Below are positions 3,901 to 62,815 of a stretch of DNA of 64,000 nt, piece after piece (the first letter of the stretch is position 1; each line of letters starts with the position of its first letter). The stretch is from Tubulanus polymorphus. Lineage: Eukaryota > Animalia > Nemertea. A model generated the notes under the pieces. The model saw nothing but the letters and a program-made list of their open reading frames with translations, searched no databases and was not told the DNA's origin. The position numbers and the translations under genes were made by a program. The stretch is taken from positions 7,782,485-7,846,484 of the forward strand of contig NC_134027.1 in the NCBI RefSeq assembly GCF_964204645.1. Direction: 5' to 3'.

Positions 3901-6900
3901 CATCCACTGAGCCGACCAATTTAACCGCAATCGCATTATTCAATTTACCCAGTATCAACTCTTTAATTTGTCCTGTACAGGTTTTGATATCTTTGGCTGA
4001 AGTTATTTGACCGTCCTCTGTACTGTCTATACCTGAATAAATGTAACAACATTCAATATTCAACATTCAATGAAATGCATCGCAAAATTTATCTATTATT
4101 TCAGGAGAATTGAAGTATTAATGTATAAGAATAGGTAATGAACAATCTAGATAGGAATTTGAAATTCCATTTGATGAAACTTAATCAGTTAAATCATGGA
4201 CGTAAAACGATATCATCTATTATACATTCATGGTTTAATGCAAAATGCAGTGATGAGCTGTTACACGTTAAATCAGTCAGTCACACTTCGTTGAAATCAG
4301 TTCATATGCAATTAATAATGACAAAGATATTCACGCTTTACAGCTGCGAGATATTGCATAGATACACACAGTTCTGACAGTCTTTCATTGGCATTATTTC
4401 TTATTCATTATTGATTTGTCTGTGAGGATGTCGGACAGATTCTAATTACATTTAGGCCTACTGAGAAAAAAATTGTTGCTAGCAAACCAGACAGATCTTC
4501 ATTCGCCAGAGTACCGTAACCAGACTCAATGACTTTGATAAACAGGTCAAAAAGCAGCTCTGAAATACGGATGACAGAATAAAGGTTCAACGTACCGTTA
4601 AAATCATATTCAGCGGCCATCGTTAACAAAGTATCCTTCATGTTTGAGATAGTATCGATGATCAACGTACGTATTTCATCCTGTTTTTTCACGGCTATGT
4701 CCATTAACGACAGATAGAGTTCATTTTCTTTTTCGCGGGCGAATTCCAACTTTCGCGGCGTGACCATCATGTCGCGCGCCATGTCGAACGCGGTCATTAT
4801 GAAATTACGCAGGCAACGTGTGTGCGCGATGTTCAATAATGTCGCCGCGCGAATCAAGTGAGTTTGTAAGACCTGACGCACAAATAATAATAAATAAGTA
4901 GTGAAGTTTTCGAATTTCTCCACATACTCGCTGTCCATTTCCGCAGTTGTCGTGTCGCCAGAACTTATTCGCATACGAGTGTTGTCTTTTGGCACCAGAC
5001 TCAGGTATCCGATATCGCATAGTTGGTGGAAGATGTTCACCGACGCGTGGTCACGTGACGTCGACGACGGAGCCGTTTGTTGGTATTCCGTCGCAAAATG
5101 ACGCGACGATACTGGTACAGATTTACCATGACGTGCCGATTCGGTGAGTTCTACTGAGTCCGCATAAGACGGAACTTGCACAAAAAACACAGGGGTTTTC
5201 GGAGCCATAGTTTTCAGTTCTTTTAATTCTTCAATGTCCTGAACAGAAGAAAACAAAAACACAATGAAAATAAACAATATGAAAAACATTTAGAGCAAAC
5301 ATCATCAGAAAAGCACCAGTCTCCAAAATCTAATTTTGAATTGAAGGTGCCATGAATGGAATCAAAATCAACAACAAATATATCACATACCTTTTGATAT
5401 AATTGGTCAGCACCAATCGCATATATAAGTATTGGCAGTACATCCTCCGTACATTTCTGATAAACTTGTTCGATTGTTCCCTCGTAATCCATTCGACACG
5501 GCGACATGACGACCTGCGTGCCGTCCTTCAACAGCGGATGATTCAGCGTCACCTCCAGCGTCGCTCTACCGTGCGCAACGTCCTTCGTATCATCGTCGGA
5601 GATTTTAAGGTCGGCGATGGGTACTGTACGCCATGACTGATTGTACGCGGCGAGGTTATCGACGAGTTCGTAACTACCCGGCAAACTCAAACTCAAATTG
5701 TTCTGATTGCCGTATTTAAAACGTACCATGCGCCACGTCACTTCCTCGTGGTCTTCGACCAACGGTAAAATAGTCTGCGAGAATAGATCGTTAATGATGT
5801 TCGCTTTCGCGTTCGAAGTTTGACCCAAAACGACTATGCACTGTGGCTGGTTGATGATGTTCTCAATTTCTTCTTCTTCTTCCGGATAGAGATCGGCGGA
5901 CAAAATCTGATCTGAAAAAACCCGATTCAATACACTATGAGAATTCAATACACTATGAGAATGAAGAAACGCTGTCTACACTGGCATTATTATTAATCCT
6001 CGCTTGGTATAAACCCATTTTGGTTCTATAGCCAATTCAACCACTTAAGACTTATGAACAGGTGGGATATTGAACCACAGATTGAAGAGGTCTCGATTAT
6101 TAGTTACCACAGGACCTTACGAAACGATGAAAGTTGGGACCTGAGCCTGCCCAATAGATTCACCAAGGTTTTGCCATAAATCTATTGGATATGTTACTGT
6201 TTTATGCATAGGTCTTCTGTCTAGCAAACAAACCACACTATGTATAGGCAACAATATGAACCCTAACAAGTCTTCATAAGTAGGATAACATATATGCAAT
6301 AGTACTGCCCTTCTTTGGGTTCCTCTGCCAAAATTCAAATGCTAGGTACGATCCTAATATTGTGTATTTTTCTCAATATAATCAAATCAATTGGCAGCAA
6401 AATGGCTTCGATACGCAATGTATATACTAATCTCTCAGCTACAGCCACGCCCCATGCTGCATTACGTCCATTCATTTATGAATGAAAATCATTTTTCACT
6501 GGCATCTGTTCTGTACACGACATCAACATCGAGTTAACACGTGAATGAACGAGTACTATACTACAGTGTTAGACAGCTGATTGCATAGGGTGCAAATTGA
6601 AAATCGATAAACAGTTTTTCAAACATTAAAGCATTCCTTTGTGTCGACTATCATTCACCTTTTCTTGTCATTTTCGACCAAGGAAATACAAATATGTCAT
6701 AGGCTCCCATACAGAAATTTTTAAAAGAGAGATGGCGAAATCATCAGAACATGCTGTCGATACAAATGTCCACCTATCATGATAAAGCCTAACCAAAGGA
6801 TTAAGGACATTTCGAAATGTCAGAATTTCATCATCGGAAGTTTTTCAGTTTATGTATGGCTTAAACAGATGTTTCATCATATTGTCCACCGACATGAACC

Positions 6901-9161: not shown

Positions 9162-12100
9162 GTCTGTCTGCAGAGTTTCCGGAACCTGTCATGTCAGGTC
9201 TTAAGACCTGACATGACAGGTCTGACCTGTCATGTCAGGTCCCGAAAAAACCCAAACTCATGACAATATTTGACGAAACGGCGAAATATCTAGACATGTG
9301 CTAGACGAATGGAAGAACATTTTGAGTTGAATGAATATTCTGACCCGTCGTTAATATCGAAAATGATTCAACAATAACGATAAGGAAAATGTTCTGACAA
9401 ATAATTCATTTGAAAGGCTGATTTATAAGAAGAAAATATTAATGTGTAAACTATGACTTATTACTGTATTTAAGGGAAAAAAATAAGTTTTAATTTAGTA
9501 GATGAATTAATTAATGTAGAAGTAAGAGCACATTGTAAGAGAATATTTTCGCTAGATGAATCGAGGTCTTGATATTTCGTTTCCGCAATAAGACACTGAA
9601 AATTAACTGCTCACTATCACAGTTCGGCAACACTCCTCACTGTCATCAGTCATGAAGTCTCACTATTTATATTCATTGTCTTTATGATGTACATGTAAAA
9701 GAGCCGAATGCAATATAGAAACTGATTTTATTGAGACTGATCATCAATTTAAAGCATGAAGTTTTTTTTCAATTTATACCAGTTTTAATGCAGACCTGTC
9801 ACCTCAGGTCCCGAGAAGCTCTGCAAAATGGCGCGAGCTGCCGTGTGAGGTCTCACTTCATAATTATTGTTTTATAGTAACTTAAGATTAACTCTATCAA
9901 TGGTTAGCAATTTATATCATACTTATTACTATATAAAGGTTATAAAAAGTAAAGTTTTTTCCAATTCATCAGTTTTAGTGCAGACCTGTCACAACAGGTC
10001 CCGAGAAGCTCTGCAAAATGGCGCGCGTTGCCGTGTGAGGTCTCGCTTCAAAATTATTGTTTTATAGCAACTTAAGATTAATTCTATCCATGCTTAGCAA
10101 TTTATATTATACTATTTACTATAAAGAGACCATAAAAATTAAAGTTTTCCTTCATTTCATCAGTTTTAATGCAGACCTGTCACCACAGGTCCCGAGAAGC
10201 TCTGCAAAATGGCGCGCGTTGCCGTGTGAGGTCTCGCTTCAAAATTATTGTTTTATAGTAACTTAAGATTAACTCTATCTATGGTTAGCAATTTATATTA
10301 TACTTATTACTATATAAAGGTTATAAAAAGTAAAGTTTTTTCCATTTTATCGGTTTTAGTGCAGACCTGTCACCTCAGGTCCCGAGAAGCTCTGCAAAAT
10401 GGCGCGAGCTGCCGTGTGAGGTCTCGCTTCAAAATTATTGTTTTATAGCAACTTAAGATTAATTCTATCCATGCTTAGCAATTTATATTATACTATTTAC
10501 TATAAAGAGACCATAAAAATTAAAGTTTTCCTTCATTTCATCAGTTTTAATGCAGACCTGTCACCACAGGTCCCGAGAAGCTCTGCAAAATGGCGCGCGT
10601 TGCCGTGTGAGGTCTCGCTTCAAAATTATTGTTTTATAGTAACTTAAGATTAACTCTATCTATGGTTAGCAATTTATATTATACTTATTACTATATAAAG
10701 GTTATAAAAAGTAAAGTTTTTTCCATTTTATCGGTTTTAGTGCAGACCTGTCACCTCAGGTCCCGAGAAGCTCTGCAAAATGGCGCGAGCTGCCGTGTGA
10801 GGTCTCGCTTCAAAATTATTGTTTTATAGCAACTTAAGATTAATTCTATCCATGCTTAGCAATTTATATTATACTATTTACTATAAAGAGACCATAGAAA
10901 TTAAAGTTTTGCCTCATTTCATCAGTTTTAATGCAGACCTGTCACCTCAGGTCCCGAAGCTCTGCAAAATGGCGCGCGTTGCCGTATGAGGTCTCGCTTC
11001 AAAATTATTGTTTTATAGTAACTTAAGATTAACTCTATCTATGGTTAGCAATTTATATTATACTTATTACTATATAAAGGTTATAAAAAGTAAAGTTTTT
11101 TCCATTTTATCGGTTTTAGTGCAGACCTGTCACCTCAGGTCCCGAGAAGCTCTGCAAAATGGCGCGAGCTGCCGTGTGAGGTCTCGCTTCAAAATTATTG
11201 TTTTATAGCAACTTAATATTAATTCTATCCATGCTTAGCAATTTATATTATACTATTTACTATAAAGAGACCATAAAAATTAAAGTTTTCCTTCATTTCA
11301 TCAGTTTTAATGCAGACCTGTCACCACAGGTCCCGAGAAGCTCTGCAAAATGGCGCGCGTTGCCGTGTGAGGTCTCGCTTCAAAATTATTGTTTTATAGT
11401 AACTTAAGATTAACTCTATCTATGGTTAGCAATTTATATTATACTTATTACTATATAAAGGTTATAAAAAGTAAAGTTTTTTCCATTTTATCGGTTTTAG
11501 TGCAGACCTGTCACCTCAGGTCCCGAGAAGCTCTGCAAAATGGCGCGAGCTGCCGTGTGAGGTCTCGCTTCAAAATTATTGTTTTATAGCAACTTAAGAT
11601 TAATTCTATCCATGCTTAGCAATTTATATTATACTATTTACTATAAAGAGACCATAAAAATTAAAGTTTTCCTTCATTTCATCAGTTTTAATGCAGACCT
11701 GTCACCACAGGTCCCGAGAAGCTCTGCAAAATGGCGCGCGTTGCCGTGTGAGGTCTCGCTTCAAAATTATTGTTTTATAGTAACTTAAGATTAACTCTAT
11801 CTATGGTTAGCAATTTATATTATACTTATTACTATATAAAGGTTATAAAAAGTAAAGTTTTTTCCATTTTATCGGTTTTAGTGCAGACCTGTCACCTCAG
11901 GTCCCGAGAAGCTCTGCAAAATGGCGCGAGCTGCCGTGTGAGGTCTCGCTTCAAAATTATTGTTTTATAGTAACTTAAGATTAACTCTATCTATGGTTGG
12001 CATTTTATATTATACTCTTTACTTTAAAGAGACCATAAAAATTAAAGTTTTCCTTCATTTCATCAGTTTTAATGCAGACCTGTCACCTCAGGTCCCGAAG

Positions 12101-12758
12101 CTCATCAAAATGGCGCGCATTGCCGTGTGAGGCCTCACTAATTAATCAGTGTTATGTCTAATTTATCTATGTCAACTTATAAGCTTGGACTGAAATGTTT
12201 TTAAATTGTATGTACACTTGGTTAATTAATTATATTGCGAGTAATTAATAAAAATATATAATAATATAGGGCCTAATCTTAATGAGTATAATGATTGTTA
12301 TTAATACTGATTATGATTACATAAGGCACTACTGGTATCATTTTGCCTGATCTTGATATTTTTATGTTTCGTGTTACAAAAAAATAAATTAATTGTAAAC
12401 AATTCGTTCAATGTTCTCCAATAATTCACAATCATTCCATCTTTATTATCATAAGGCGATATAGTTCAACAACTTTTTATAAACGGACAAACATAAATTC
12501 TTAAATGAATTCATAACACATCCTAGTTTGTTTTTTGTTTTTGAATAATATATTCAGAAAGCACTACAATATGTTCTTTGTGTTCTTATCGGCTATCATT
12601 TGTTCTAAATCCGCGCCTATCATATCTTCTAATCGCCTATCATCGGTTCAGTCATAACGATTTTCATTTTAGCGAATCGACCTGTCACCTGAGGTCCCAC
12701 CTGTCATGTCAGGTCTTGGGCCCTGACATGACAGGTTCTGGAAACTCTGCAGACAGAC
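9162..12758. mobile_element. Non-autonomous TIR element, 3.6 kb, containing a tandem satellite array
   Basis: 37-bp inverted termini 9162-9198 and 12722-12758 match at 36/37 positions. Each end has three copies of an ACCTGTCA..CAGG-type motif. No transposase ORF. Confidence 0.8.
9757..12138. repeat. Tandem satellite, about 12.5 units of 190/191 bp organised as a 381-bp A/B dimer
   Basis: Core CAGACCTGTCAC at 9791, 9981, 10172, 10362, 10553, 10743, 10934, 11122, 11313, 11503, 11694, 11884, 12075. The AT-rich parts alternate between two variants, and the dimers are near identical. Confidence 0.97.
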
Positions 12759-13425: not shown

Positions 13426-27395
<13,970 letters not shown>

Positions 27396-31663: not shown

Positions 31664-31870
31664 TAAAGAGGATCCCATAATTTATACATGTGATAATGAA
31701 AATATTCCGAAATGTTTCCTTGAGCTAGTAGTTTATTCAACATTTTGGCTACATCCTAATAATCTTCTTCGGGAATATGACTATTAGGATATAGCCGAAA
31801 CGTCGAATAAACTACTAGCTCAAAGAAAACATTTTCGGACTATTTCCGTTATTACCATGGGATTCTCTTT
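31664..31870. repeat. Imperfect palindrome of about 205 bp, possibly inverted Penelope-like terminal fragments
   Basis: Arm TTGAGCTAGTAGTTTATTCAACATTTTGGCTACATCCTAATA matches its inverted partner at 38/42; the match extends outward with an indel. Contains GCCGAAACGTCGAATAAA. Confidence 0.7.
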
Positions 31871-32178
31871 ACATCATCGTCACAACACGGATATGATGTC
31901 CTATAAATGGTAAACTCTGAGAAATGTATAAGATCCAAACTTACTCTCGACAAAGACAATAGTTCCGTAGAAACCGCATATTTATTGAATTTTCAGCTGT
32001 AATTCAAACAGTGCAAAAAAGATCCACGTCCCCTTTTCGATTATGGCCGACATATATTCAAAAAATCAGTATATAAATAAACGAATTCTTATTCGACTTT
32101 CTAGATAACGCAACTGCATTGTATATTTCCATCCGAGAAAATTCAATTCAATAACATTACTATGTAGCTATCTCACAA

Positions 32179-32301
32179 CGGTCAGACTTGCCGAATAAGT
32201 AGCATGGATAATGATGTTTGAAATTAAATTCCATGAATGCATAGACATTGAATTGTAGAAATTGGGATAAATTGTGCATTACTTTTCGGCAGGTCTGACC
32301 G
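32179..32301. mobile_element. Small MITE-like inverted-repeat element
   Basis: CGGTCAGACTTGCCGAATAAGTA and TACTTTTCGGCAGGTCTGACCG are inverted copies with 2 differences. Confidence 0.5.
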
Positions 32302-32872
32302 AGCTGGATTTTATCCGCGCGGCTTACTAAAATTACATAGCGCTTTACCGAAAAGCAGTCCAGTTAACTTTGTACATTAGCTTATAGGTGCATTTAACAA
32401 AGAATCTTTCTTGAATATAGAATATGTATAATCGTTCGCATAACAAAAATACTTTTACTATGAAGAGCATCAGAGGATTTTCCAATCTTTAGTAAGTTTT
32501 AGAAGAGTTCTGTATACGGAGGAAGTTTTATGATTTTCCATTTCAAAGTTCAAACAAATGAAAGTTTTAGACGTAAACATTGAATTCCTAGCATATCGGA
32601 TTTAAGCATATTGTTTCATAGCCATGGATCGGTATATATTGAAAAACCAAGGCGAATGGAAGCAGTACTGTGAGGGACGACGAGAAACACGTTCAACTAA
32701 AGATTGTAGGCAGTTCATCCATGACTTCGAAACTCACAGTGAAATGATGAACGTAATCGGAACAGTAATCATATACTTCACTACCGGTAAGGCAATTACT
32801 AATGCATATTCAACAAAACAAGACATATTTACAGAGTTTGTCAACCATAAGCTCACATCGCAAATTATTGAA

Positions 32873-33129
32873 TTATTTTCCGGGGAATTCGGAGAAACGC
32901 TTTTTTCCACCAAGGAACTCGGAAAAACGCTTCTTGCCGCCTAAAAATTCGCTAAATCGCTTTTTGCCACCGAGAAATTCACTGAAACGCTTTTTCCCGC
33001 CTAGAAATTCACTGAACCGTTTCTTCTTTCCGCCCAAGAACTCACTGAACCGTTTCTTTCCACCCAAGAATTCGCTGAATCTCTTGTTGACGAAGCCGTG
33101 CAGTTTTTCGTGGACGTGGTCTGTAGAGT
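32873..33129 (-). CDS. EFLGamide / TRH-type neuropeptide exon (6x FSEFLGamide, 1x FSEFPamide); last exon of precursor isoform B, about 148 aa with the shared signal-peptide exon
   Basis: Acceptor TTTCTGACATTTATTTGTAG (an in-frame alternative AG lies 9 nt downstream), phase 1. Reads DSTDHVHEKLHGFVNKR-(FSEFLGG-KKR)x6-FSEFPGK*, with one linker being KKKR. FSEFLGamide is the known annelid (Platynereis) ligand of the TRH-receptor orthologue. Confidence 0.92.
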
Positions 33130-35674
33130 CTACAAATAAATGTCAGAAAACGATGTTTTACATTCGAACTCAGCCACAAGAATACGTTTCGATCGATCAG
33201 AAAATAATCAAAATGCAAAATGTTAAAATCGTTATGAGCAATATAAATACGTAAGAAATACATAATTTTCTCTAGAATTCGATCGATCGAAATGATTGTT
33301 GGAGGACAAAAGAAATGATATATGAAAATGTCTTGTCTACTAAAGATACTAATGGAGTATCGGTTTGAACATGCAATGTAAAGCAGACGAGCTGGTTAAT
33401 GCTGACGAATTTCTCATTTGAATGTTCACATTTTTCAAGGTGCGTTCGCACGTTGTGAGCAGCCAGATTTTTTCTTCACTAATGACTTACAACTACCGAA
33501 GAGAGAATGCATGAAATATGCACAAGGTGTAACGTTTATTCCGAAATGGAAGTGTTGCACCGAACATGAGATGCATTAGTGTTTCCCTATACTAACTTAT
33601 CACGAATATGCAAGAGATGAAAATCAGTACATACTTAACCCAAATGACCTTTTCTTGTTACATAAAGAAATATTCGAAAATATCATCGATTAACAGAATT
33701 GAAACAATAAAACTCAATGTTTAGATGATACATAATTGCATTGTAAACTAGGAATTGATTCCAAATCAAAATTCGACATGTTCTATCAACCGGAGCGCGG
33801 CGTATCAATACGCGTCCTCCACGTCAGAGCTGTTTGGCGCACGGCGACCAGCAATGCAAAGAGCTTCGCTGCCGGAAAAAAGCATTCAGTAGTTATTATG
33901 TCATAGTCTTTATAATGAAGAATCGTGGAAATCTATGCAATTTGTGTCAGCTTTTGGAATTTGAGCGATTTTGATTTGAAATAATCGGCCATAGTTTACA
34001 ACACTTTAACGCGGAATGAAGCATTCACCGTTTCCAGAAATGGTGCTTAGAATTTTTTGAATACCTAATGAATGCTTTCGACACCGACAAGAATCCACAG
34101 GCGGTGGCACATTAATTGATAGTATTACTTATACACAATGACTAAAAAGCATCAGATGTGAATCAAAACCACTTCAGAAAAATGCGACGCTCAGCAAGAT
34201 TCCAGGAAGGAGTTTATACACGGTTCCCAAAAAGAAACCTACAAATAAATATTTGATCATGAATGTGGCGAAAGAATTTGCTCCAATTCGCACAATAGCA
34301 ATTTTTCGGAAGTGATGTTGGATGGTGCTGGACAATTAACTGATGCTTCCTAGTTTCACCTCTTGATAGAATCATGGGTATGGGCAGATGGGAAATTATA
34401 CATAACCATATATTCAACAGTTACTGGAACACAACAAATTACTAGCGAACATAGACTGAATGTACAGATGAAACAAGTGATCTAATTGTTCGGAGTTTTA
34501 TTCGTCAAAATATTTTTACGGACTACAGGACCCCGTATTGTATGGCTGCTTTATAAATGTCGTCGTGATGGCGGGGCTGTTTTAATTCTATTCTAAAAGT
34601 CAAGATGATCAACTATTAAACTTACGTTAGACTTCCCTGAAAAGAGAATCAGTACAAATTTGCGTAGATTTGCCAAGCGATTGCCGTTTGAATGTTTGGC
34701 GTCAATCGGTGACATTTTCATCCGCGGTGCGGATGTAACTCCGCGTAATCATATTCAATATTAGACAGCACACGATTTAATGAATTTATTGAAATATGCT
34801 TTTCATATCGGGTATATGGATATAATTGATACTGAAAGTCTGATTGATTGGCATATTTGCTTTCCAAGTGGTCATTATATCGTGGCCGTGTCGTTTTTTC
34901 ATTAAAGCATGCAGGATTGAGAGCCGAGTATTGTTAGCGAATATTTGATAGGAGGACAAAACTGGGTGGAACGAACGCGATAGTCAATGGGAAGTTTAGC
35001 ACCTTGGGTATGTTCTGAAAAGGAAGGACGAAGAACGCAGCATTAACGACATTGGTTATACAGCGTTAAGTCTGAAAGAGAGCTAAAGTCATCTATTAGG
35101 GAGTAAAGAAAATACCCAGAATAAGCGTTGATTTCAACCATCTCAACAGCAACCTTAAAACCTTTGTAATCGAAGTTTTTAGTTTAGGATCTTGCCGGCC
35201 TATTAGAACACATTTGAAATGAATTGCATCTTCCATACATCTTTCACTTGCAGTGAGTATTCTACTATATTCTGAGTGCCATGACCCTAGTTAGGTCCTA
35301 TTGACCCGTGATTGATGATTGCTTTAGTTCTTAGCAGTCCTGTTGAGACGGTTTTTAATCGAGACTATAATGCAGTCGACCAATAGTGTTACTGAGATAG
35401 GAAAGAGAATGAAGTCATCGGACGATCAGTTGGATCGTCAATTACTGGAATAGAATTTAGGATATAGACATAAGGAGATAATAATCTATTCTACCATGTG
35501 ATTAGAGTAGGCTATATATGCGCGGATAGAGAAAGAATCGTCCCATGAGAAATGGAACTGCGATAGATCTACGACCTTCGTAGCGCTTTAGCGGTCATCT
35601 TGTATTAGCAGTTGATAGAACGGTTGTCTGTATACAAACCAAGGACTGACAGTATCCGGGAAGTTAGATAGTTA

Positions 35675-35717
35675 GACAGAGAGAGTTAGAGAGAGAGAGA
35701 GAGATAGAGAGAGGCAG
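35675..35717. repeat. GA-rich simple repeat
   Basis: (GA)n-rich tract, which is pyrimidine-rich on the gene strand, just downstream of the PxFI exon. Confidence 0.7.
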
Positions 35718-35745
35718 AGTCCGAGGCTTCAATGGTTACCTTCGA

Positions 35746-36188
35746 TTACATTGATTTTTTCTTTCCGGCATTCAGCAGAACTTTTCTATTTTGCGAAATA
35801 GAGCGTTTGCCAATGAAACCAGGTTTTCGTCGCTTGGCTTCGGCCGTTTTGGCGTAATCATTTTCTTCCGCATCAAACATGTTCTTTGTTTGTTGGGGCA
35901 CGCTCAAAAAATCATCGTCTTCACTCCCTCGTTTGCCGAGGAATGAAGGCCTCCTTTTACCGATAAACCCAGGGGTAGGACGCTTTCCTAAATAAGCAGG
36001 TCGCCCAGTTAATGAATGTGACCACCTATTTCCATAATAGTTTCCCAGAATTACGCCAACCCGTTTGCCTATGAAAGAAGGTTTTCGTCGTTTGCCGATA
36101 AAGCCGGGCCTCCGACGTTTGTCAATACTGTCTTCACTTCTTTTGCCGATAAAACTAGGTCTTCGTTCCGTAATCTGGATAGCGCCAT
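35746..36188 (-). CDS. PxFI/PxFV-amide (FVamide / Mytilus inhibitory peptide-like) neuropeptide exon; isoform A, about 210 aa
   Basis: Acceptor ..CCTAATATAG, phase 1. Seven G-KR-terminated peptides: RRPSFI, RRPGFI, RKPSFI, ..GRPAYL, PTPGFI, RPSFL, RKPGFI. Stop at 35748-35746. Confidence 0.9.
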
Positions 36189-36604
36189 CTATATTAGGGC
36201 AAGAAAATTTAATGAAGCAGCAGAACATTTATGCACTCAAGAATCATTCAACTCTCTGAATACAAATTTGATACAATTATGGGCAGATCGGGCGTATTTG
36301 GTTTCATTTAACATTCAACACGTTATCCATATGTAACGGCAGGGTAAATACAAACATTTATTTTTCTATCATCTCCAAACCATCAGAATTTTTGTGCGTG
36401 TACTTTTCAATAATACGTGAATGATACGATGCGTGAAACAGTTAAATTTTCTGTGAACAGACATATTTTGCAACGAGCGCACACGACAGATCGCGGTGTG
36501 TGTGCGTGTCTTTCAAAACATTAACATCATTAATGGTTGCGTGTAAGTGATGGCAATTTATATCGAAAACAATGAATCGTATTTTGAAAATCTGCGCTGC
36601 TTAC

Positions 36605-36794
36605 CGTCGTTATCGAGTTGGCCTTCGTTGATCATGTGGTCTAAATATCCCCTGTATAAATCGGATTCTAATCTGTGAAGTTCTTCATCGTCGGGACTCG
36701 AAATTTCTTCTGACGAAGTTGACGACGATACGATTGCTAGTTCAGCTACTAAAGCCAGCAACAGTACAACAAAAGCTTTATAACTGTGATTCAT
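36605..36794 (-). CDS. Shared signal-peptide exon of the neuropeptide gene
   Basis: MNHSYKAFVVLLLALVAELAIVSS followed by an acidic spacer. TTCCAG acceptor 2 nt before the ATG. Donor G|GTAAG is phase 1 and fits both downstream peptide exons. Confidence 0.9.
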
Positions 36795-36882
36795 TTCTGG
36801 AATGAGAAAACAATTATAAAAAGCGTTTGCCATTTCAACAAGACTAGTCACAGCAAGAACGCAGTTCATAACGTTAACCGAT

Positions 36883-37770: not shown

Positions 37771-40700
37771 CTGCACTCGGGAACTTTGTTTTAAAGGAAA
37801 AGCGAAGCGTGTTCGAAACGATGGTGAGTGGCGTTTCGCTTGCGGGTTTTGCTTTTTTGCGTTCTGAAAAAGGCGACGACGACGTGTCACACAGATTTTG
37901 TCGGATCTCGTCGGCAGAACAGTTCAAACGCATATCATACCATACTGTTCAGATGCGGAAGAACCCGATGTTTGTTTTAGGGCGCGTAAACACTCGGCGA
38001 AAAAAACATAAAATCCGCATCGTGCAGAAGCATCAAAATGACATAAAAAGATGCCAACCTGATGATAACTTTGAACTGATATTTTGATATTTTTTTTCTT
38101 GTCAAAAAACCAAAACTTGTGAAATAGCCTTATTTTGTTTCAGGTAAAATAACAATGTAATTTTCACAAATACGTGAATTTAGATCATTGGTATTTGTAA
38201 CAATCTTCTTCTATTTGAAATTTAGGAAATTCCGAGTTTATCGTCATTTTCCAACAATGGAAAACTCGCGCCCTTAAATAAGACGAATAGATATCTATCA
38301 CTGAGTTTTGGAAAATTAGCAAATCTTTGCGCAATACGAACGAAGTCGAAATAAGAAAAGATGTTAATTTCCTCATAAGCTGATATCAAGAAAAACGTCG
38401 TATCCTCAGAAAAAAATTCTCGCATTTCGATGTCGTTGGAACCAGTAGATATTGGAGCTCCACCGTCAAAGCGAAATATATAATATATAATAGCATGTAC
38501 GGAAACTGATCTGTGATAATTATTTCCTCAGTTGGACAATATGTGAAAAGGAGGGCTATTGTTTCTTTCACTTTGAAACGGATTTTTTGATGGAGTTCTC
38601 AACGGCCGGTTTTCTGATTAGTCCTTTTACCGCATTTGCTATCGGTAAGTATACATCAGTCCCCGATAGAGAGCATTTGGTTATTTTGTGTTTACATAAG
38701 TTAATTAATTGCTTGAGAAAAAATCGGTGTTTGTTCAGGCTTATAATTTCAATACTTAATTTAGTGTTTAAGTATATTATGTTGTTCGATGCGATATGCT
38801 TCTTAAGTATACATCTTATTTGTGTGAAAGGTGTGTATATCAATTGAGTGTTGACACGGTTGGTTCGTAGGCGTGGGGATAGCTTTCGAGTTGCCCATAT
38901 TCATTTACTGTTTATCAGCCACGCATGTCTTTTTGAGCACTTTTTTGTTGTTGTACGGAATTCATCTATTTTCGGATAATTTCTGAGCTAGATCCCTTGG
39001 TTAAGCAGTGGGACGGTTTTATGGCGATGTTGTAAAATCATGAGTCTGATAACTAATGGAAAATATATTTCCCTAGCTAGTTTTACAAGGACCGGTGATG
39101 GATGCACATTTCGGTTTATTTAGACTCAGTTTTATGACCATTCCCGTTTTATTCTGATCGGCTTTTTATAATTATTGTCTTTTTTACAAAGTCCGATCAG
39201 CGCACCGCGTACCACTAAGTATAACCGTGTCACCTAATGGCCGAGGCGGGCGACAAATCAACCGCAAACATACCAATTGAAATATTATGTATCTAAATAA
39301 ATACGGCTCTTAGTTAATGCACGTAGATACATACTGTGTTATGTTTGATGAACAATGGGTTTTTCATCGTAAAGATAATGCGGAACGATTTGATTGAATA
39401 CAATTATCATCGGTTACAACAAGTCTCTATTACTTCTGCTCTATCCATCCGAATTGTTGTCAATTTTACAGGCTTTTTGTTTTATCTTTCGGACTGTTTG
39501 ATTATCGAGGGAAGCACCGCCAAATATAAAAGCATCACTTTGTCAGTATGGTTTGTATTTCATATTCAATCATATACATTTCTAATTACGCAAATATCTA
39601 ACATAAAGTATAACCTTCGTGAAGTAATAAGAAAATTCCAAATACGATGAATATCAAACAAGATAGTATATCTATAATAAGCGGGTGCTGTAAATCTTTT
39701 GGTGTTCGTTTCCAGCCAATTTTCATCAACCAGTTTTGATAGATATGAAAGTTTCCGTTTCACGTCAATTCCCACCATACTCGACTTCAACCCCCTGACA
39801 AAAAACCTGATGTCATATCGTTCAAATATTTGCAAACTTTTTCCCCAAAGAAATCGTTCGATCGTGTCTGCAGCTGTAAGTTTGAATTAAAATAGATTCT
39901 GTAAGTTTGAATTTAACCAGATTGGTCCGACCTTTGTCACACATTCCGAGAAAACATACTTTCCAACTCTGAACCAATGCAATAACATTATGTTTCCGGT
40001 CCGTTGAATTTCCAATTTTCGCACTGAAAATTGGTAATGCACAAATTTAATCTAGAATAAATTGTATTATATCATGTAAGACCATAGACCCCAGACAGTA
40101 TGGATTTTGATCGTTTCATTTCGCCGAACTGGTTTTTTTCATGATAGATTTCAAAACGTTCCGATATTAAAATCTTCCTAGCGGGAGTCGATTTGCCGGG
40201 TGTCTGATGAAAATTCGTAATTCGTAACCGGGTGTTGAAAAAAGACAACGAAACAAATAGTAGTTTATAGGGTTGGTATTTGATGCACGAGCTTTCGCTG
40301 TAGTGTATAGTGCTTCATCAGGTGAATGAGTATAGTCATTATAGTATTATGACATTGTCACTCTGCCTATAAATGCCGTTGTTTTTCCATTGAATATTTA
40401 TCTCGTTGATGCAAAAAGAGATAACAGGCTTTAAAGTTACAAGAAGTTCACGCAAAAGCTACAGAAGCTGCATCAAATTGTACGAGATTATATGGCTATA
40501 TCTGATTCGCATTTCTGATTCTATCACAAATTCAGGACACATTGGGGACACTGTCTAATATAATGTATCACTTGCATAAATCCGTTACGGAAGGTAATCT
40601 GGCTTAGGGCGAAAAAACGACGTCTAAGTAGGATAAAATCGAAGATTTAATTGGGATTAGGCTGGCGTTTATTAATTATTCAAGTGTAAATTGAATCGTG

Positions 40701-43595: not shown

Positions 43596-43755
43596 GGGTA
43601 ACGATCGTAATGGTAAAGCAACTATTACCAAGATGGGCCACATGTAGTATCGACTACTTCCCAGGGAGCGTAAAAGGGTAACGATCGTAATGGTAAAGCA
43701 ACTATTACCAAGATGGGCCACATGTAGTATCGACTACTTCCCAGGGAGCGTAAAA
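43596..43755. repeat. Perfect 80-bp tandem duplication
   Basis: GGGTAACGATCGTAATGG...CCCAGGGAGCGTAAAA at 43596-43675 and 43676-43755. Confidence 0.95.
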
Positions 43756-50154: not shown

Positions 50155-53100
50155 AGAAAGGACTAAATGCTTCCAACGGTTATCATTAGAAAGAGATTCC
50201 GTACATGATTTTAAGATTGATTTGCACAATTCGCGAAATAAGCAGTGTTTTACGCATGTTTTATCGTTTTGTTACAAAGCTGAAAATCCTTATGAAATCT
50301 CTCGTAAATATATCGGTGAAGTTCAACTTGTAAACCTCCATTCGCGGCACTTGTTCGGAGGCAGAGATTATCTGGCAATCGATACACGAATTGTAAACAC
50401 GGGCCCAACCCTTCAATCACTCGTATCGACGTGTCGACTTTCTCATTATTACAAATCATAATCCATTTTGATCGGCCTCTTTTGTTTGGCCAGTATGTCC
50501 AATTGGAATACAACCGCATTTGATAAATTCTTGATAATGCGTACATTGTCCGCTCGTGAGGTATAGTTTTGATTTATCAGTATACATAGTAATTCGCTGA
50601 GCTAAGTATCACATAAGCTTCGATACAACCACAACAATAGTCGATTCTTCATTTATCTGTCGCTCCCAGATTCATCTAGTGATAATCAGAGTTCGTATGA
50701 CAATCTTGAAACATCTGTGCGACGATAAGAAGATTTTGACGTCTAAAAATAACGCTAACGCATTCTATCGTTGGATTTGGTTTCATTTCATAATCACCGT
50801 AAATACGTGCTTATATAACTGCACCAAAGCTATTCGATTGAAATCTAACCTTTTATTCTATAATATTTGTCAAAGTATCGTTTACAAAAAACGCCTTAAT
50901 CACCTGCAATCGATCGATACTCAAATTATGGAACACACTATTCTCGACTTACGTTTAAAGGATCATTAATAAACATGTGATTGATATTTTCAAGCATTAA
51001 TAATTTCAGCAGAGGTTCAAACATTATAGTTGTTGTCATCGTTATGAATTTTATGCTCTATGGTTGTTTAGAAATGATATCATAAGTTTACGTATATTAC
51101 TATCAAAATTAGAATTAAAATTAGTACAACTTTTCAATTTTTAACAGAATAAAGGGCCCTGTTTTAATGGAAAGGTACTTAGTACAATGCCTTAGCCGGT
51201 AACATCTATATTTTGATAAGCGAATATTTGGTATACAGATTATCAAATGCTTTTAGTTCCATTATGCGAATGAAACTGCGAACGTTATTGAGATACTTAA
51301 TTGTACGACTAGTCGATATTTGTCTACTGTTTCAATGAATCGCATAATTCGCGAGTGTGTCTGCAACCTACGACAATTGAATTTGAAGCCTAGCGCGCAA
51401 ACGAGCGTTTCTTTTTTCAAGCGTTTAGGAAAATAGTGTCGCTCGTTTCGCCCGAAACTATGCGAGGCATGCGCACAGACACAAACCGTCGTATATAAAT
51501 CTAAATCTTTTACTCGAAAATTCGTTTGATACTCGAAGTTTTCAAGACGAATATATAAATCTTAAGTAGTTTGTCTTTGTTGAATTATTGAGGACAGATG
51601 TTGTTAGAGAAGATGAACCTAAAATCGTATTCAGAAACTGCGCAAACTTTGTGGGGGTTCTTCTATTTTGAAAGTCTCCAATCCCCGAGAACGGAAAAAG
51701 TCTTTCTTGCCTACCTGCACATATTTCTACATTTAAATTGAATTCACACGGCTAATGGTACCCTTGACAACAAGGCACTCAATTCTTCCTTCGTATCAGT
51801 TTTTAACAGGAATTAACGACTTCTCAGAAGAAAATTCGTGATATATATCACATACAATAATTAACGTATAGTCAATGTGCTTTGAGTTTCATCGATTTTA
51901 GAATTAAAACTGTTCTCAGCAGTTAAATCTGCTTCTATGATCGGCAGTCACCTTTTACCTGAGCACTTCAAACAACGCGTTGACTGGTTGGAAATGATTT
52001 AACCAACCTAGAATGAAGTATCCCAAACTCCTGCTGATACTATCGCGTCGTTTAACATTTACGTTCAACCGACCAAATTTTAAATTGGCCTATATGAAAT
52101 CTATGTATATAAAAACTAGAAATTATTGTCTTATCATCACCACTTCAAATCGATATAAAAGATGATGCGAACATTACAATTTCCTAGGATTGTGAAAACA
52201 GATAATAACGACAGATGATTATTATAACAGATATGCAGATCAACATTTTCTAGTGTTTCATCCTATTTTTAAAAGAAAAAACGGTGTTTATTATTATGAA
52301 TGTAGAACACATTACCTATTGATATCTATTTCCGAGCTTTAAAGTTGAAATTCTGATCGGGTTTTCGTTCGGTGATTCGTAGCTAGTCGCCGATTCCCTT
52401 TAGACCGTCGTGATGGCTTATCCCAAAGAAACAAATATTCGCGCGTTGGTTGCCTCTCTCTCTCTCCCTCTGTGTGTTGATGGCGCTTTCTGTTCTCTCT
52501 GTGTTGTTAGATCGAAGTTTTCGCTGAAAGCACCATTCCTCGCAGCCCCGCCTGCACAATTCTACCGATTTTATGATTGGTCGAAAACGACGATGACGTG
52601 AGCAACGGTTTGGCGCGGCACCCGATGTTGCCAACTTTTCCCCAATTGGCGACGCATCATTGGCGGGAAGCGGCATCGGCATGCAGTCATGCAACACCGT
52701 GGATACGTACATATATTAAACGGATTATTTTCGAAACTCGAAGGCTGATTTGCCCAATTAAAGGCATCTAGATTAGAACACACTTGGGCATTGGCGACGC
52801 GAGTTTGGAAATGAAATTATAAATATCCATGAGTGACGTTGCGAGTTGAATTATTAATTAGCAATTTTTATCACCTTCGCGTCGATGTCGTTTGCCTCCC
52901 ACTTCCCAAATTGACATCAAAGCGTGATAAGGTGTAATTCGGGGTATTATTTAATTATTCATCGTTATATATACCCGCCGGACAACACTGATATACCTAC
53001 CGAATTGGCACCAATATCAATAATTATTAGGGACCCATGTTTTCTTGAATTCAGAAGCTATCAATTTCTTTATAATTTTGGTTAGATACGTATCACGTGA

Positions 53101-60970: not shown

Positions 60971-61570
60971 GTCCAACGCAACGATGGAACTATATAAGAA
61001 ATTTCTGAACTAGCGGCTGTGGAAATTAATTTTCGTAAAATCCTTTTCGAGTAGTTCTCAATTGGTTTTATATAAATCATGTGGAACAGCGAATCGGCAG
61101 CGAAAAGACGAACACTTTTTTCTGGCTCGAAATCATTGCGTTGTTTTTCTTTAATTTGTGATTACAACATAATATCGTAATGTTTATATGTTTTTTCGTT
61201 GTAAAAGAATAATATTTTATTTGTAAAAAAATGTCTAATAAACTTTTTGATCGTGTGTACGACAGTCGTTTCAGCGCGGTTTATGTTGGTGCCGGAGCAC
61301 TGATCCACCACGTTATCGAATTCAATATTCATCCTGCATCACATTTTGAAATGAAAAATATTTCATTTTACAGTTTTTGGAGCTCCTATTCATCTGCCCT
61401 TTTCAGTTAATTGCAGTTAAATGGCTATATCAATCCCCACGACAAACATTTGAATTTGAGTTTCAAATTAACCACCATAGCATTATTTACATTGTTAAAT
61501 TTCCGTTTCTGCGCAACGATGACTTTTTGACAGCGACTTCATTGTAATAAAATATTGGTGGTCACCCGAA

Positions 61571-62815
61571 ATGAGACAAAAACAAAGAAGCGCTGGGAGA
61601 GGCCGGACGAGAAGCTGTGAAGTTGAACCGACAAAAATATATAATTCTCGAAATGTATTCGAAACCCTTCGCGAGCATCACGGTCGAAATTGCTTCGCCA
61701 ATTACAGCACAGCCGGAAAGGTCAGGAATGCGCTTTACCGTTTTATACGTTTACAAGGTAACTACAGCCGGGTCGTGTCAGGATTGATCAAAGAAGCTAT
61801 TGACTATTTCAGTAAGATGAGCTTTTTGAACGATATCGGCGCGTCCGATGAATCGTCCACGTGTACAAACGAGGTTTTATACTTGGCAGCTCATGTTTGT
61901 TACAAGTTTAACGTCGAAGACTCGGATTTGGTTTCAGCCGTTTTCGAAAAAGTCATGGCATCTTGCGGCAATTTCGATCGGTTTTTTGAGTTTCTCGACC
62001 CGATGTCCTTAGTGTTTGAAATCGAAAATAATCTTTATCCGTATCGTTACAACGAAAAAGACGGACACATAACCAAGGCGAGGCTTCGGGCTTTGGAATA
62101 TTTCATTCCTTATATTACCAGATACAAGGCCACCCAGATGTTTTTCGATCCACTATCGTTGCTGCCTTCGGAATCCGATGATTTCGTTCTTACGGCTAAA
62201 CGTGTCCGGGTGGCTTTGATAGATTCGCCTCTGAATAGCTGTCGGGGTTCGACCCCGATTTTACTGGCGTGTCATTCGTGCAGTCCAGAAGCAGTGCAAC
62301 TACTGCTACGATACGGCTGCAAAGCGATGCCGGTTGAGGCGAATGGACCCGGTCTAGTGCAGCCCGACATCAACACTAGACATTTCCAACCGATCTACCA
62401 AGTCACCAGCAAACTGAACGCGTTAGTGTTTTGGCGATCGCGAAATGTTTTCGATCATCTTACCGAAGAGGAGAATGACGAACTACAAAATCAACTGCAA
62501 AAACGCGAATCTGTCCTCGTCGATATTCTGAAACTGTTCGGCGCGGCTGTTAGGAAATTACCAGTAAAAATTGCCGCGGGTGATTCCCTGGTTTCTACCC
62601 AATCGACGTCGTTGATGTTTTATTTGAATCCGTATTACGCGAAATATCCAGATCTCGTGTTAATGTGTTCGCCCGGACCGTCGCCGTTAGTTCATTTGTG
62701 CCGTTGTGCCATCCGGGAAACAATGCGTGAGTGTGAAACTCTGCCGTCTGGTATCAATAAATTACCGTTGCCGAAAATGATACAGAAATACTTGGATCTG
62801 CATTTGCAGTACTGA
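61571..62815 (+). CDS. Intronless protein with one ankyrin repeat and a C-terminal SOCS box (ASB17/STOPS-like), 414 aa
   Basis: Single ORF. Ankyrin-like GSTPILLACHSCSPEAVQLLLRYG; SOCS box PSPLVHLCRCAIRETM...INKLPLPKMIQKYL. Confidence 0.8.
   Translation: MRQKQRSAGRGRTRSCEVEPTKIYNSRNVFETLREHHGRNCFANYSTAGKVRNALYRFIRLQGNYSRVVSGLIKEAIDYFSKMSFLNDIGASDESSTCTNEVLYLAAHVCYKFNVEDSDLVSAVFEKVMASCGNFDRFFEFLDPMSLVFEIENNLYPYRYNEKDGHITKARLRALEYFIPYITRYKATQMFFDPLSLLPSESDDFVLTAKRVRVALIDSPLNSCRGSTPILLACHSCSPEAVQLLLRYGCKAMPVEANGPGLVQPDINTRHFQPIYQVTSKLNALVFWRSRNVFDHLTEEENDELQNQLQKRESVLVDILKLFGAAVRKLPVKIAAGDSLVSTQSTSLMFYLNPYYAKYPDLVLMCSPGPSPLVHLCRCAIRETMRECETLPSGINKLPLPKMIQKYLDLHLQY

What the first reader, a model, noticed from the sequence alone, without database searches (positions are those of the whole stretch)
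32873..36794. One gene, two neuropeptide families: a stop-containing cassette exon switches PxFI-amide versus TRH/EFLGamide output
Seen: there is one signal-peptide exon, ending in phase 1, and both peptide exons begin in phase 1 and stay in frame with it. The PxFI exon has a good donor AAG|GTAACC at 35740/35739, only 6 nt after its stop. Inference: including the exon gives the PxFI precursor with the whole EFLGamide exon as untranslated 3' UTR, and the stop is close enough to the junction to escape the 50-nt NMD rule; skipping it gives the TRH-type precursor. Known: alternative splicing linking FVamide and EFLGamide precursors has been reported in annelids, so the linkage is not new; the cassette and NMD-escape layout is what this sequence adds. 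In situ probes to the EFLG exon would also detect cells making only PxFI peptides.
Basis: partly seen in the sequence, partly recalled or inferred. Interest (0 to 1): 0.82.

Follow-up and report, generated by a model that had tools for sequence, protein, structure and literature searches.

The report
Ribbon-worm two-neuropeptide cassette-exon gene
This ribbon-worm gene splices a stop-containing exon for FI-amide neuropeptides in front of an exon for thyrotropin-releasing-hormone-like EFLG-amide peptides, and likely makes the second family by skipping that exon; oysters are already reported to do the same.

Summary
On the minus strand, a signal-peptide exon (36796-36605, phase 1), a PxFI exon (36188-35740; stop 6 nt before its donor) and an FSEFLGG exon (33129-31966) form one gene; a non-coding first exon at 52316 was missed. 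A spliced 1,915-nt contig carries both inclusion junctions exactly, with the EFLG exon out of frame in the 3' UTR. The inclusion protein is RefSeq XP_074646151.1, Tubulanus polymorphus. The skip junction was not seen in this animal's one spliced run, but a published Tubulanus transcriptome has both isoforms, diverging at the homologous residue. The cassette layout is not new: it is described for oyster (PMC8398477). What this adds is modest: a genomic case in Nemertea; stop-to-junction distances of 6-58 nt in nine lineages (most inferred), consistent with but not proving NMD avoidance; and a shifting EFLG reading frame, which argues against the stop-read-through model proposed for Platynereis. 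New member of a known kind; interest 0.28.

The parts
52316..52425 (-). E0, non-coding first exon (5' end approximate); donor TAG|GTAATG; 15,519-nt intron follows
36605..36796 (-). E1, shared exon: ATG at 36794, signal peptide and acidic spacer, ends in phase 1
   Evidence: hydrophobic core 3.42 mean hydropathy over 10 aa; covered by X3 contig
35740..36188 (-). E2, cassette exon: seven PxF(I/L)/PxYL-amide motifs, stop at 35748-35746, donor 6 nt after the stop
   Evidence: both flanking junctions in X3 contig; E1+E2 = XP_074646151.1
35661..35727 (-). CT-rich tract starting 12 nt into intron 2; candidate splicing-regulatory element, untested
   Evidence: function is speculation
32873..33129 (-). 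Coding part of E3: phase-1 acceptor, 6 x FSEFLGG plus 1 x FSEFPG; translated only in the skip isoform, 3' UTR in the inclusion isoform
   Evidence: out of frame on inclusion; congeneric skip isoform
31966..32872 (-). Common 3' UTR with AATAAA at 31986-31981; contig ends at 31966

Best explanation
One ribbon-worm gene splices its signal-peptide exon to a stop-containing FI-amide exon and then to an EFLG-amide exon that is left out of frame in the 3' UTR, and it likely makes its TRH-type EFLG-amide precursor by skipping the middle exon. Shown here: the inclusion mRNA E0-E1-E2-E3, coding a 210-aa PxFI-amide precursor. Inferred: the skip mRNA E0-E1-E3, coding a 148-aa FSEFLG-amide precursor, probably the minor form and probably made in a subset of the expressing neurons; convertase cleavage at KR/KKR and amidation from the Gly (established neuropeptide processing, not tested). 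Inferred more weakly (about 0.5): the stop of the cassette exon is kept within about 50 nt of the last junction because junctions further away would trigger EJC-type nonsense-mediated decay. It is the nemertean member of the FVamide(MIP)/EFLGamide(fulicin) gene known from molluscs and annelids.
For: Both inclusion junctions and the 3' end in one spliced contig. E2 and E3 acceptors both phase 1, E1+E3 open through all repeats. Of 2 ATG-to-phase-1-donor candidates found in intron 2, neither has a hydrophobic core (0.56 and 1.04 against 3.42 for E1). Supplement of PMC8557429: Tubulanus component comp26466_c0 has seq1 (F[V/L/I]amide precursor plus a second, out-of-frame FSE ORF) and seq2 (same N-terminus joined directly to the FSE repeats), splitting at the Asp homologous to the window's E1 end. 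Three lineid transcripts have signal peptide plus FSE repeats with a similar N-terminus. Oyster: same three-way layout with mass-spectrometric detection of the second family (PMC8398477). Two genomic relatives (L003, L023) have phase-1 acceptors on both exons and their best donor-like site 42 and 54 nt after the stop.
Against: The congeneric transcriptome is a different sequence from the window (a related species or population), so skipping in this animal is inferred. In Platynereis, Illumina reads showed no skip transcript (PMC3890597). L023 has its donor candidates at 54 or 58 nt, at or past the 50-nt boundary given in PMC6173133. 4 of 6 related loci with 5 kb or more upstream of the EFLG exon show no FV-type exon there, and none of the lineid F[V/L/I]amide precursors listed carries the FSE-type N-terminus, so the cassette may be lost or distant in some lineages. 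EJC-dependent NMD has not been shown for nemerteans in anything I read.
Confidence: 0.9

Rival explanations
1. EFLG-amide peptides come from the inclusion mRNA by stop-codon read-through, as proposed for Platynereis.
For: PMC3890597 found FVa and EFLGa regions in frame on one mRNA, no alternative transcript, and EFLGa immunoreactivity in a subset of neurons. L008 and L036 are also in frame; L023 would be in frame with a single stop if its weaker donor at 58 nt were used.
Against: In the window the EFLG repeats are in frame +2 after the stop; read-through gives an unrelated 44-aa tail. The frame varies: +1 in L001 and in the congener (hand count), +2 in the window, L003 and L004, 0 in L008/L036, where a second stop intervenes, as in the published Platynereis sequence. 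A skip transcript exists in the congener.
Confidence: 0.02
2. Calcitonin/CGRP-type choice of terminal exons: PxFI transcripts end at a poly(A) site in intron 2 and the donor after the stop is incidental.
For: Intron 2 has AATAAA/ATTAAA hexamers (first at 35359). The calcitonin/CGRP model is recalled, not looked up.
Against: The one long X3 contig uses the 35740 donor and runs through E3 to 31966; no contig extends E2 into intron 2. Five cDNA-like relatives (L001, L004, L005, L008, L036), oyster and Platynereis carry both regions on one transcript.
Confidence: 0.03
3. In this species the EFLG exon is translated from another first coding exon, or is not translated at all.
For: No 148-aa isoform among proteins found with E1 as query.
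Against: No signal-peptide exon in intron 2; seven intact repeats with synonymous variation; RefSeq calls the inclusion protein 'isoform X1', implying another isoform on record; skip form in the congener.
Confidence: 0.05

Closest known systems
Crassostrea gigas MIP (PxFV/Iamide)/fulicin gene LOC105328755 (PMC8398477, section 2.5.1 and Fig. 3 legend read)
   Same: PxFV/I ORF with the EFLG-type region out of frame in the 3' UTR; exon skipping gives the second precursor
   Different: Oyster has a third isoform from an alternative 3' splice site and (F/Y)S(E/D)FL(M)amide peptides; the passages read do not mention stop-to-junction distance or NMD
Capitella teleta EFLGamide gene (Veenstra 2011; not read, known only as cited in PMC8398477 and PMC3890597)
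   Same: Cited as having the same structure and splicing
   Different: Annelid; details not seen
Platynereis dumerilii FVa/EFLGa precursor (PMC3890597, passages and supplement files 9 and 10 seen in part)
   Same: One mRNA with FVa ORF, stop, then EFLGa repeats; identical FSEFLG peptide, the ligand of the Platynereis TRH-type receptor (PMC5818035)
   Different: In frame with two stops and explained as read-through; the window is out of frame, so read-through cannot apply
Tubulanus transcriptome component comp26466_c0 (supplement of PMC8557429)
   Same: Orthologue with both isoforms, split at the homologous Asp
   Different: Listed under two family headings; a term search of the main text found no remark on splicing; stop about 38 nt before the junction, not 6
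Hemipteran/locust Prohormone-4/EFLa gene (PMC7294237, passages read)
   Same: A TRH-type exon borrows the signal-peptide exons of another neuropeptide by alternative splicing
   Different: Different partner gene; described as an independent insect novelty

Membership tests
Lophotrochozoan FVamide(MIP/PxFV)/EFLGamide(fulicin) dual gene | Signal-peptide exon followed by an F[V/I/L]-amide repeat ORF | tested here: met
Lophotrochozoan FVamide(MIP/PxFV)/EFLGamide(fulicin) dual gene | EFLG-type repeats downstream of the stop on the same mRNA | tested here: met
   X3 contig
Lophotrochozoan FVamide(MIP/PxFV)/EFLGamide(fulicin) dual gene | Skip transcript joining the signal-peptide exon to the EFLG exon | tested here: inconclusive
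   Frame-compatible; not seen in the one spliced run; present in a congeneric transcriptome
Lophotrochozoan FVamide(MIP/PxFV)/EFLGamide(fulicin) dual gene | Both peptide families are processed in vivo | not testable with these tools
   Needs mass spectrometry; reported for oyster
Protostome TRH-type (EFLGamide) peptides | FSEFLG-amide core flanked by basic cleavage sites | tested here: met
   6 copies identical to the Platynereis ligand
Protostome TRH-type (EFLGamide) peptides | Activates a TRH-type receptor | not testable with these tools
   Reported for Platynereis; no genome held to look for the receptor
Pfam TRH (PF05438) | Score above the curated cut-off of 27.8 bits | tested here: not met
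   16.1 bits for P0021, no hit for E3; not filed under this family, the TRH label rests on receptor pairing
Stop-codon read-through precursor | Second peptide region in frame after a single stop | tested here: not met
   Frame +2
Calcitonin/CGRP-type alternative terminal exons (recalled) | Internal exon is terminal, with its own poly(A) site | tested here: not met
   The assembled transcript splices E2 to E3; minor forms not excluded
EJC-type NMD-escaping transcript | Last junction under 50 nt downstream of the stop | tested here: met
   6 nt; rule as given in PMC6173133
EJC-type NMD-escaping transcript | EJC-dependent NMD operates in this animal and would hit a longer distance | not testable with these tools
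   No such data found

The most novel reading that the evidence does not exclude
The stop-cassette is an ancestral annelid-mollusc-nemertean design held in place for over 500 million years, with the FV/FI stop pinned within about 50 nt of the last junction by EJC-type NMD while the EFLG frame drifts freely; so the 'neuron-specific stop-codon read-through' reported for Platynereis is rare neuron-specific exon skipping, with the junction predicted 46 nt after the FVa stop, and spiralian TRH-type signalling is gated by a splicing decision inside FV-amide neurons.
Probability: 0.5. Interest if true: 0.5.

Novelty: new member of a known kind. Interest (0 to 1): 0.28.

Why it matters
It extends a known oyster/annelid gene design to a nemertean genome, so the linkage likely predates the split of these phyla. 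It gives a cheap test of a published claim: Platynereis EFLGa is cited as a read-through case (PMC3890597, PMC5100048), whereas the comparative frames point to skipping at a predictable junction. In practice, in situ probes and 3'-tag single-cell counts on the EFLG exon cannot tell TRH-type neurons from FV/FI-only neurons, and longest-ORF annotation hides the TRH-type precursor.

Tried and rejected
No genome is held for this window, so paralogues, the receptor and genome-wide 3' UTR intron distances could not be examined. Run search: no RNA holder listed; of 4 runs laid, only X3 gave spliced contigs. No 36605>33129 joint in X3: not evidence of absence, as contigs drop rare variants and it is one sample. 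Protein searches with E1 found only the inclusion protein (1 of 181 candidates; P0021 plus one unrelated weak hit); I cannot tell whether minor isoforms are held in those collections. Pfam gave nothing above cut-off for 4 of 4 precursor queries. P0023 (Lineus 'PRQFV-amide-like') has a different N-terminus from the lineid FSE precursors and is probably another gene. Oyster supplement gave no exon coordinates, so the oyster stop-to-junction distance is unknown. A tblastn of stored precursor N-termini against the loci (output cut at 6,000 characters) showed no inclusion/skip pair from one species in the part seen. A second in-frame AG at 33121 is not used by the X3 contig. Three look-ups of earlier findings returned nothing. 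Read-through and alternative polyadenylation were considered and rejected (see rivals).

Full report
Observation. On the minus strand an ATG at 36794 opens a 190-nt coding stretch with a signal peptide that ends in phase 1 at 36605. A 449-nt exon (36188-35740) continues it to a 210-aa precursor with seven amidation motifs (five PxFI-G, one PxFL-G, one PxYL-G), stops at 35748-35746 and has a donor AAG|GTAACC 6 nt later. A third exon from 33129 also starts in phase 1 and, joined to the first, gives a 148-aa precursor with six FSEFLGG and one FSEFPG between basic sites. The 210-aa protein is identical to RefSeq XP_074646151.1, 'uncharacterized protein LOC141902365 isoform X1', Tubulanus polymorphus, a nemertean.

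Transcript evidence. Four runs hold the region; none is on record as RNA. One of the four, X3, gives spliced contigs: a 1,915-nt record with no mismatches covers 31966-33129, 35740-36188 and 36605-36798 across two GT-AG introns. The contig ends 15 nt after an AATAAA at 31986-31981. So the donor after the stop is used and the EFLG exon is 3' UTR in this mRNA, in frame +2 relative to the PxFI ORF. The skip junction was not among the joints (3 listed; 15 shown and 9 withheld). Contigs from one sample cannot show absence.

Is the exon skipped? Intron 2 has no alternative signal-peptide exon: 2 candidates passed the ATG-to-phase-1-donor filter and neither is hydrophobic. The supplement of PMC8557429 (parts 12 and 13 read, part 11 seen as search passages) lists a Tubulanus component, comp26466_c0, clearly the orthologue though not identical to the window. 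Its seq1 codes the F[V/L/I]amide precursor and a second, shifted ORF running into the FSE repeats; its seq2 joins the same N-terminus directly to the repeats, at the Asp homologous to the window's E1 end. Three lineid entries have a similar signal peptide joined to FSE repeats. I put skipping in this animal at about 0.9.

Relatives. A scan of metagenome contigs gave 44 loci; 7 of 44 hold an FV-repeat ORF upstream of EFLG repeats, of which L004 and L005 are the same sequence. Two are genomic: in L003 and L023 both peptide exons have phase-1 acceptors, and the best donor-like site in the 400 nt after the stop lies 42 nt (L003) and 54 nt (L023, a GC donor; a weaker GT at 58) away. In the cDNA-like loci the junction, placed by homology with genomic acceptors, lies 32 (L001), 48 (L004/5) and 46 nt (L008, L036) after the stop. 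By hand from published translations I count 38 nt for the Tubulanus component and 46 nt for Platynereis dumerilii. With the window's 6 nt that is nine lineages, eight under 50 nt and one at 54-58; only the window's value is shown by a transcript-to-genome match, and three of the nine (L008, L036, Platynereis) are close kin by sequence. A donor-like site falls within 55-60 nt by chance with probability 0.06-0.15 per locus, but I had no proper null for 3' UTR introns. The pattern fits the rule that junctions 50 nt or more downstream of a stop elicit NMD (PMC6173133, passages); it does not prove it, and that review notes lineages where the EJC mode is uncharacterised. Against universality: 4 of 6 loci with at least 5 kb upstream show no FV-type motif there, and no listed lineid F[V/L/I]amide precursor has the FSE-type N-terminus.

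Read-through. PMC3890597 (passages) explained Platynereis EFLGa by neuron-specific read-through after finding no alternative transcript, and PMC5100048 repeats this. The frame of the EFLG repeats after the stop is +2 in the window, L003 and L004, +1 in L001 and the congener, and 0 with a second stop in L008, L036 and Platynereis; L023 is +2 or 0 depending on the donor. A drifting frame with a constant phase-1 acceptor is what skipping predicts and read-through does not. A skip form confined to 2-4 neurons could have been missed in whole-animal reads (inference).

What is known. The oyster paper PMC8398477 (section 2.5.1 read whole, Fig. 3 legend as a passage) reports a PxFV/Iamide ORF with the fulicin region out of frame in the 3' UTR, exon skipping that yields the fulicin precursor, mass-spectrometric detection of its peptides, and the same in Capitella (Veenstra 2011, which I did not see). 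So the cassette layout is in print. FSEFLGamide is the ligand of the Platynereis TRH-type receptor (PMC5818035, passages); the window's peptide is identical, but Pfam TRH is not reached. Insects couple EFLa to Prohormone-4 in a similar but independent way (PMC7294237, passages). I found no paper on the stop-to-junction distance or NMD for this gene, nor one revising the Platynereis model, in searches; the library lacks most subscription papers, and 5 of 16 Platynereis supplement files were not searched.

Mechanism and verdict. Shown: the inclusion mRNA and its PxFI precursor ORF. Inferred: skipping gives the TRH-type precursor (0.9); processing and amidation follow the usual route; the short stop-to-junction distance protects the inclusion mRNA from NMD (about 0.5). 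Since Platynereis EFLGa neurons are a subset of FVa neurons, add-on co-expression is at least as likely as a strict switch. The finding is real and well read, but it is a new member of a known kind. Its residual value is the nemertean genomic case and the testable challenge to the Platynereis read-through claim. Interest 0.28.

Noticed in passing
window 32873-32900 (-): The last repeat is FSEFPG-K-stop, predicting FSEFP-amide; the congener has several FSEFPG-KR copies and Cephalothrix has EFLPG. A Pro-amide end recalls vertebrate TRH (recalled, not tested).
   Followed up: partly
window 35661-35727 (-): CT-rich tract just inside intron 2, after the cassette donor; could bind a polypyrimidine-tract protein and set inclusion (speculation).
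   Followed up: no
window 33115-33129 (-): A second in-frame AG 9 nt into E3 could give a 3-residue-shorter skip product; not used by the X3 contig.
   Followed up: partly
supplement of PMC8557429, lineid entries: Lineid FSE precursors carry the E1-like N-terminus but no listed F[V/L/I]amide precursor does; the cassette exon may be lost or unsampled in heteronemerteans. Their repeats are often FSEFLGVG or FSEFLAPG.
   Followed up: partly
L018, L030, L033, L041: 5-6 kb upstream of the EFLG exon without any FV-type motif: long intron or cassette loss in that group.
   Followed up: partly
L023:5186-5190: Two donor candidates after the FV stop: a GC donor at 54 nt (EFLG out of frame) and a weaker GT at 58 nt that would put EFLG in frame behind a single TGA.
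   Followed up: partly
window 61523-62815 (+): 430-aa open frame with an ankyrin-like repeat and a C-terminal SOCS box.
   Followed up: partly
window 4408-5975 (-): Two long coding exons without Pfam hit; they resemble the N-terminal part of DSTYK-type kinases (recalled, untested).
   Followed up: partly
window 9764-12136, 25405-25539, 43596-43755, 55345-55964/57583-58142: 190/381-bp satellite array, long AT microsatellite, exact 80-bp tandem duplication, and a dispersed two-part duplication.
   Followed up: no
window 31700-31880: Very high-copy short repeat just downstream of the gene's poly(A) site, with related copies near 40300 and 41650.
   Followed up: no
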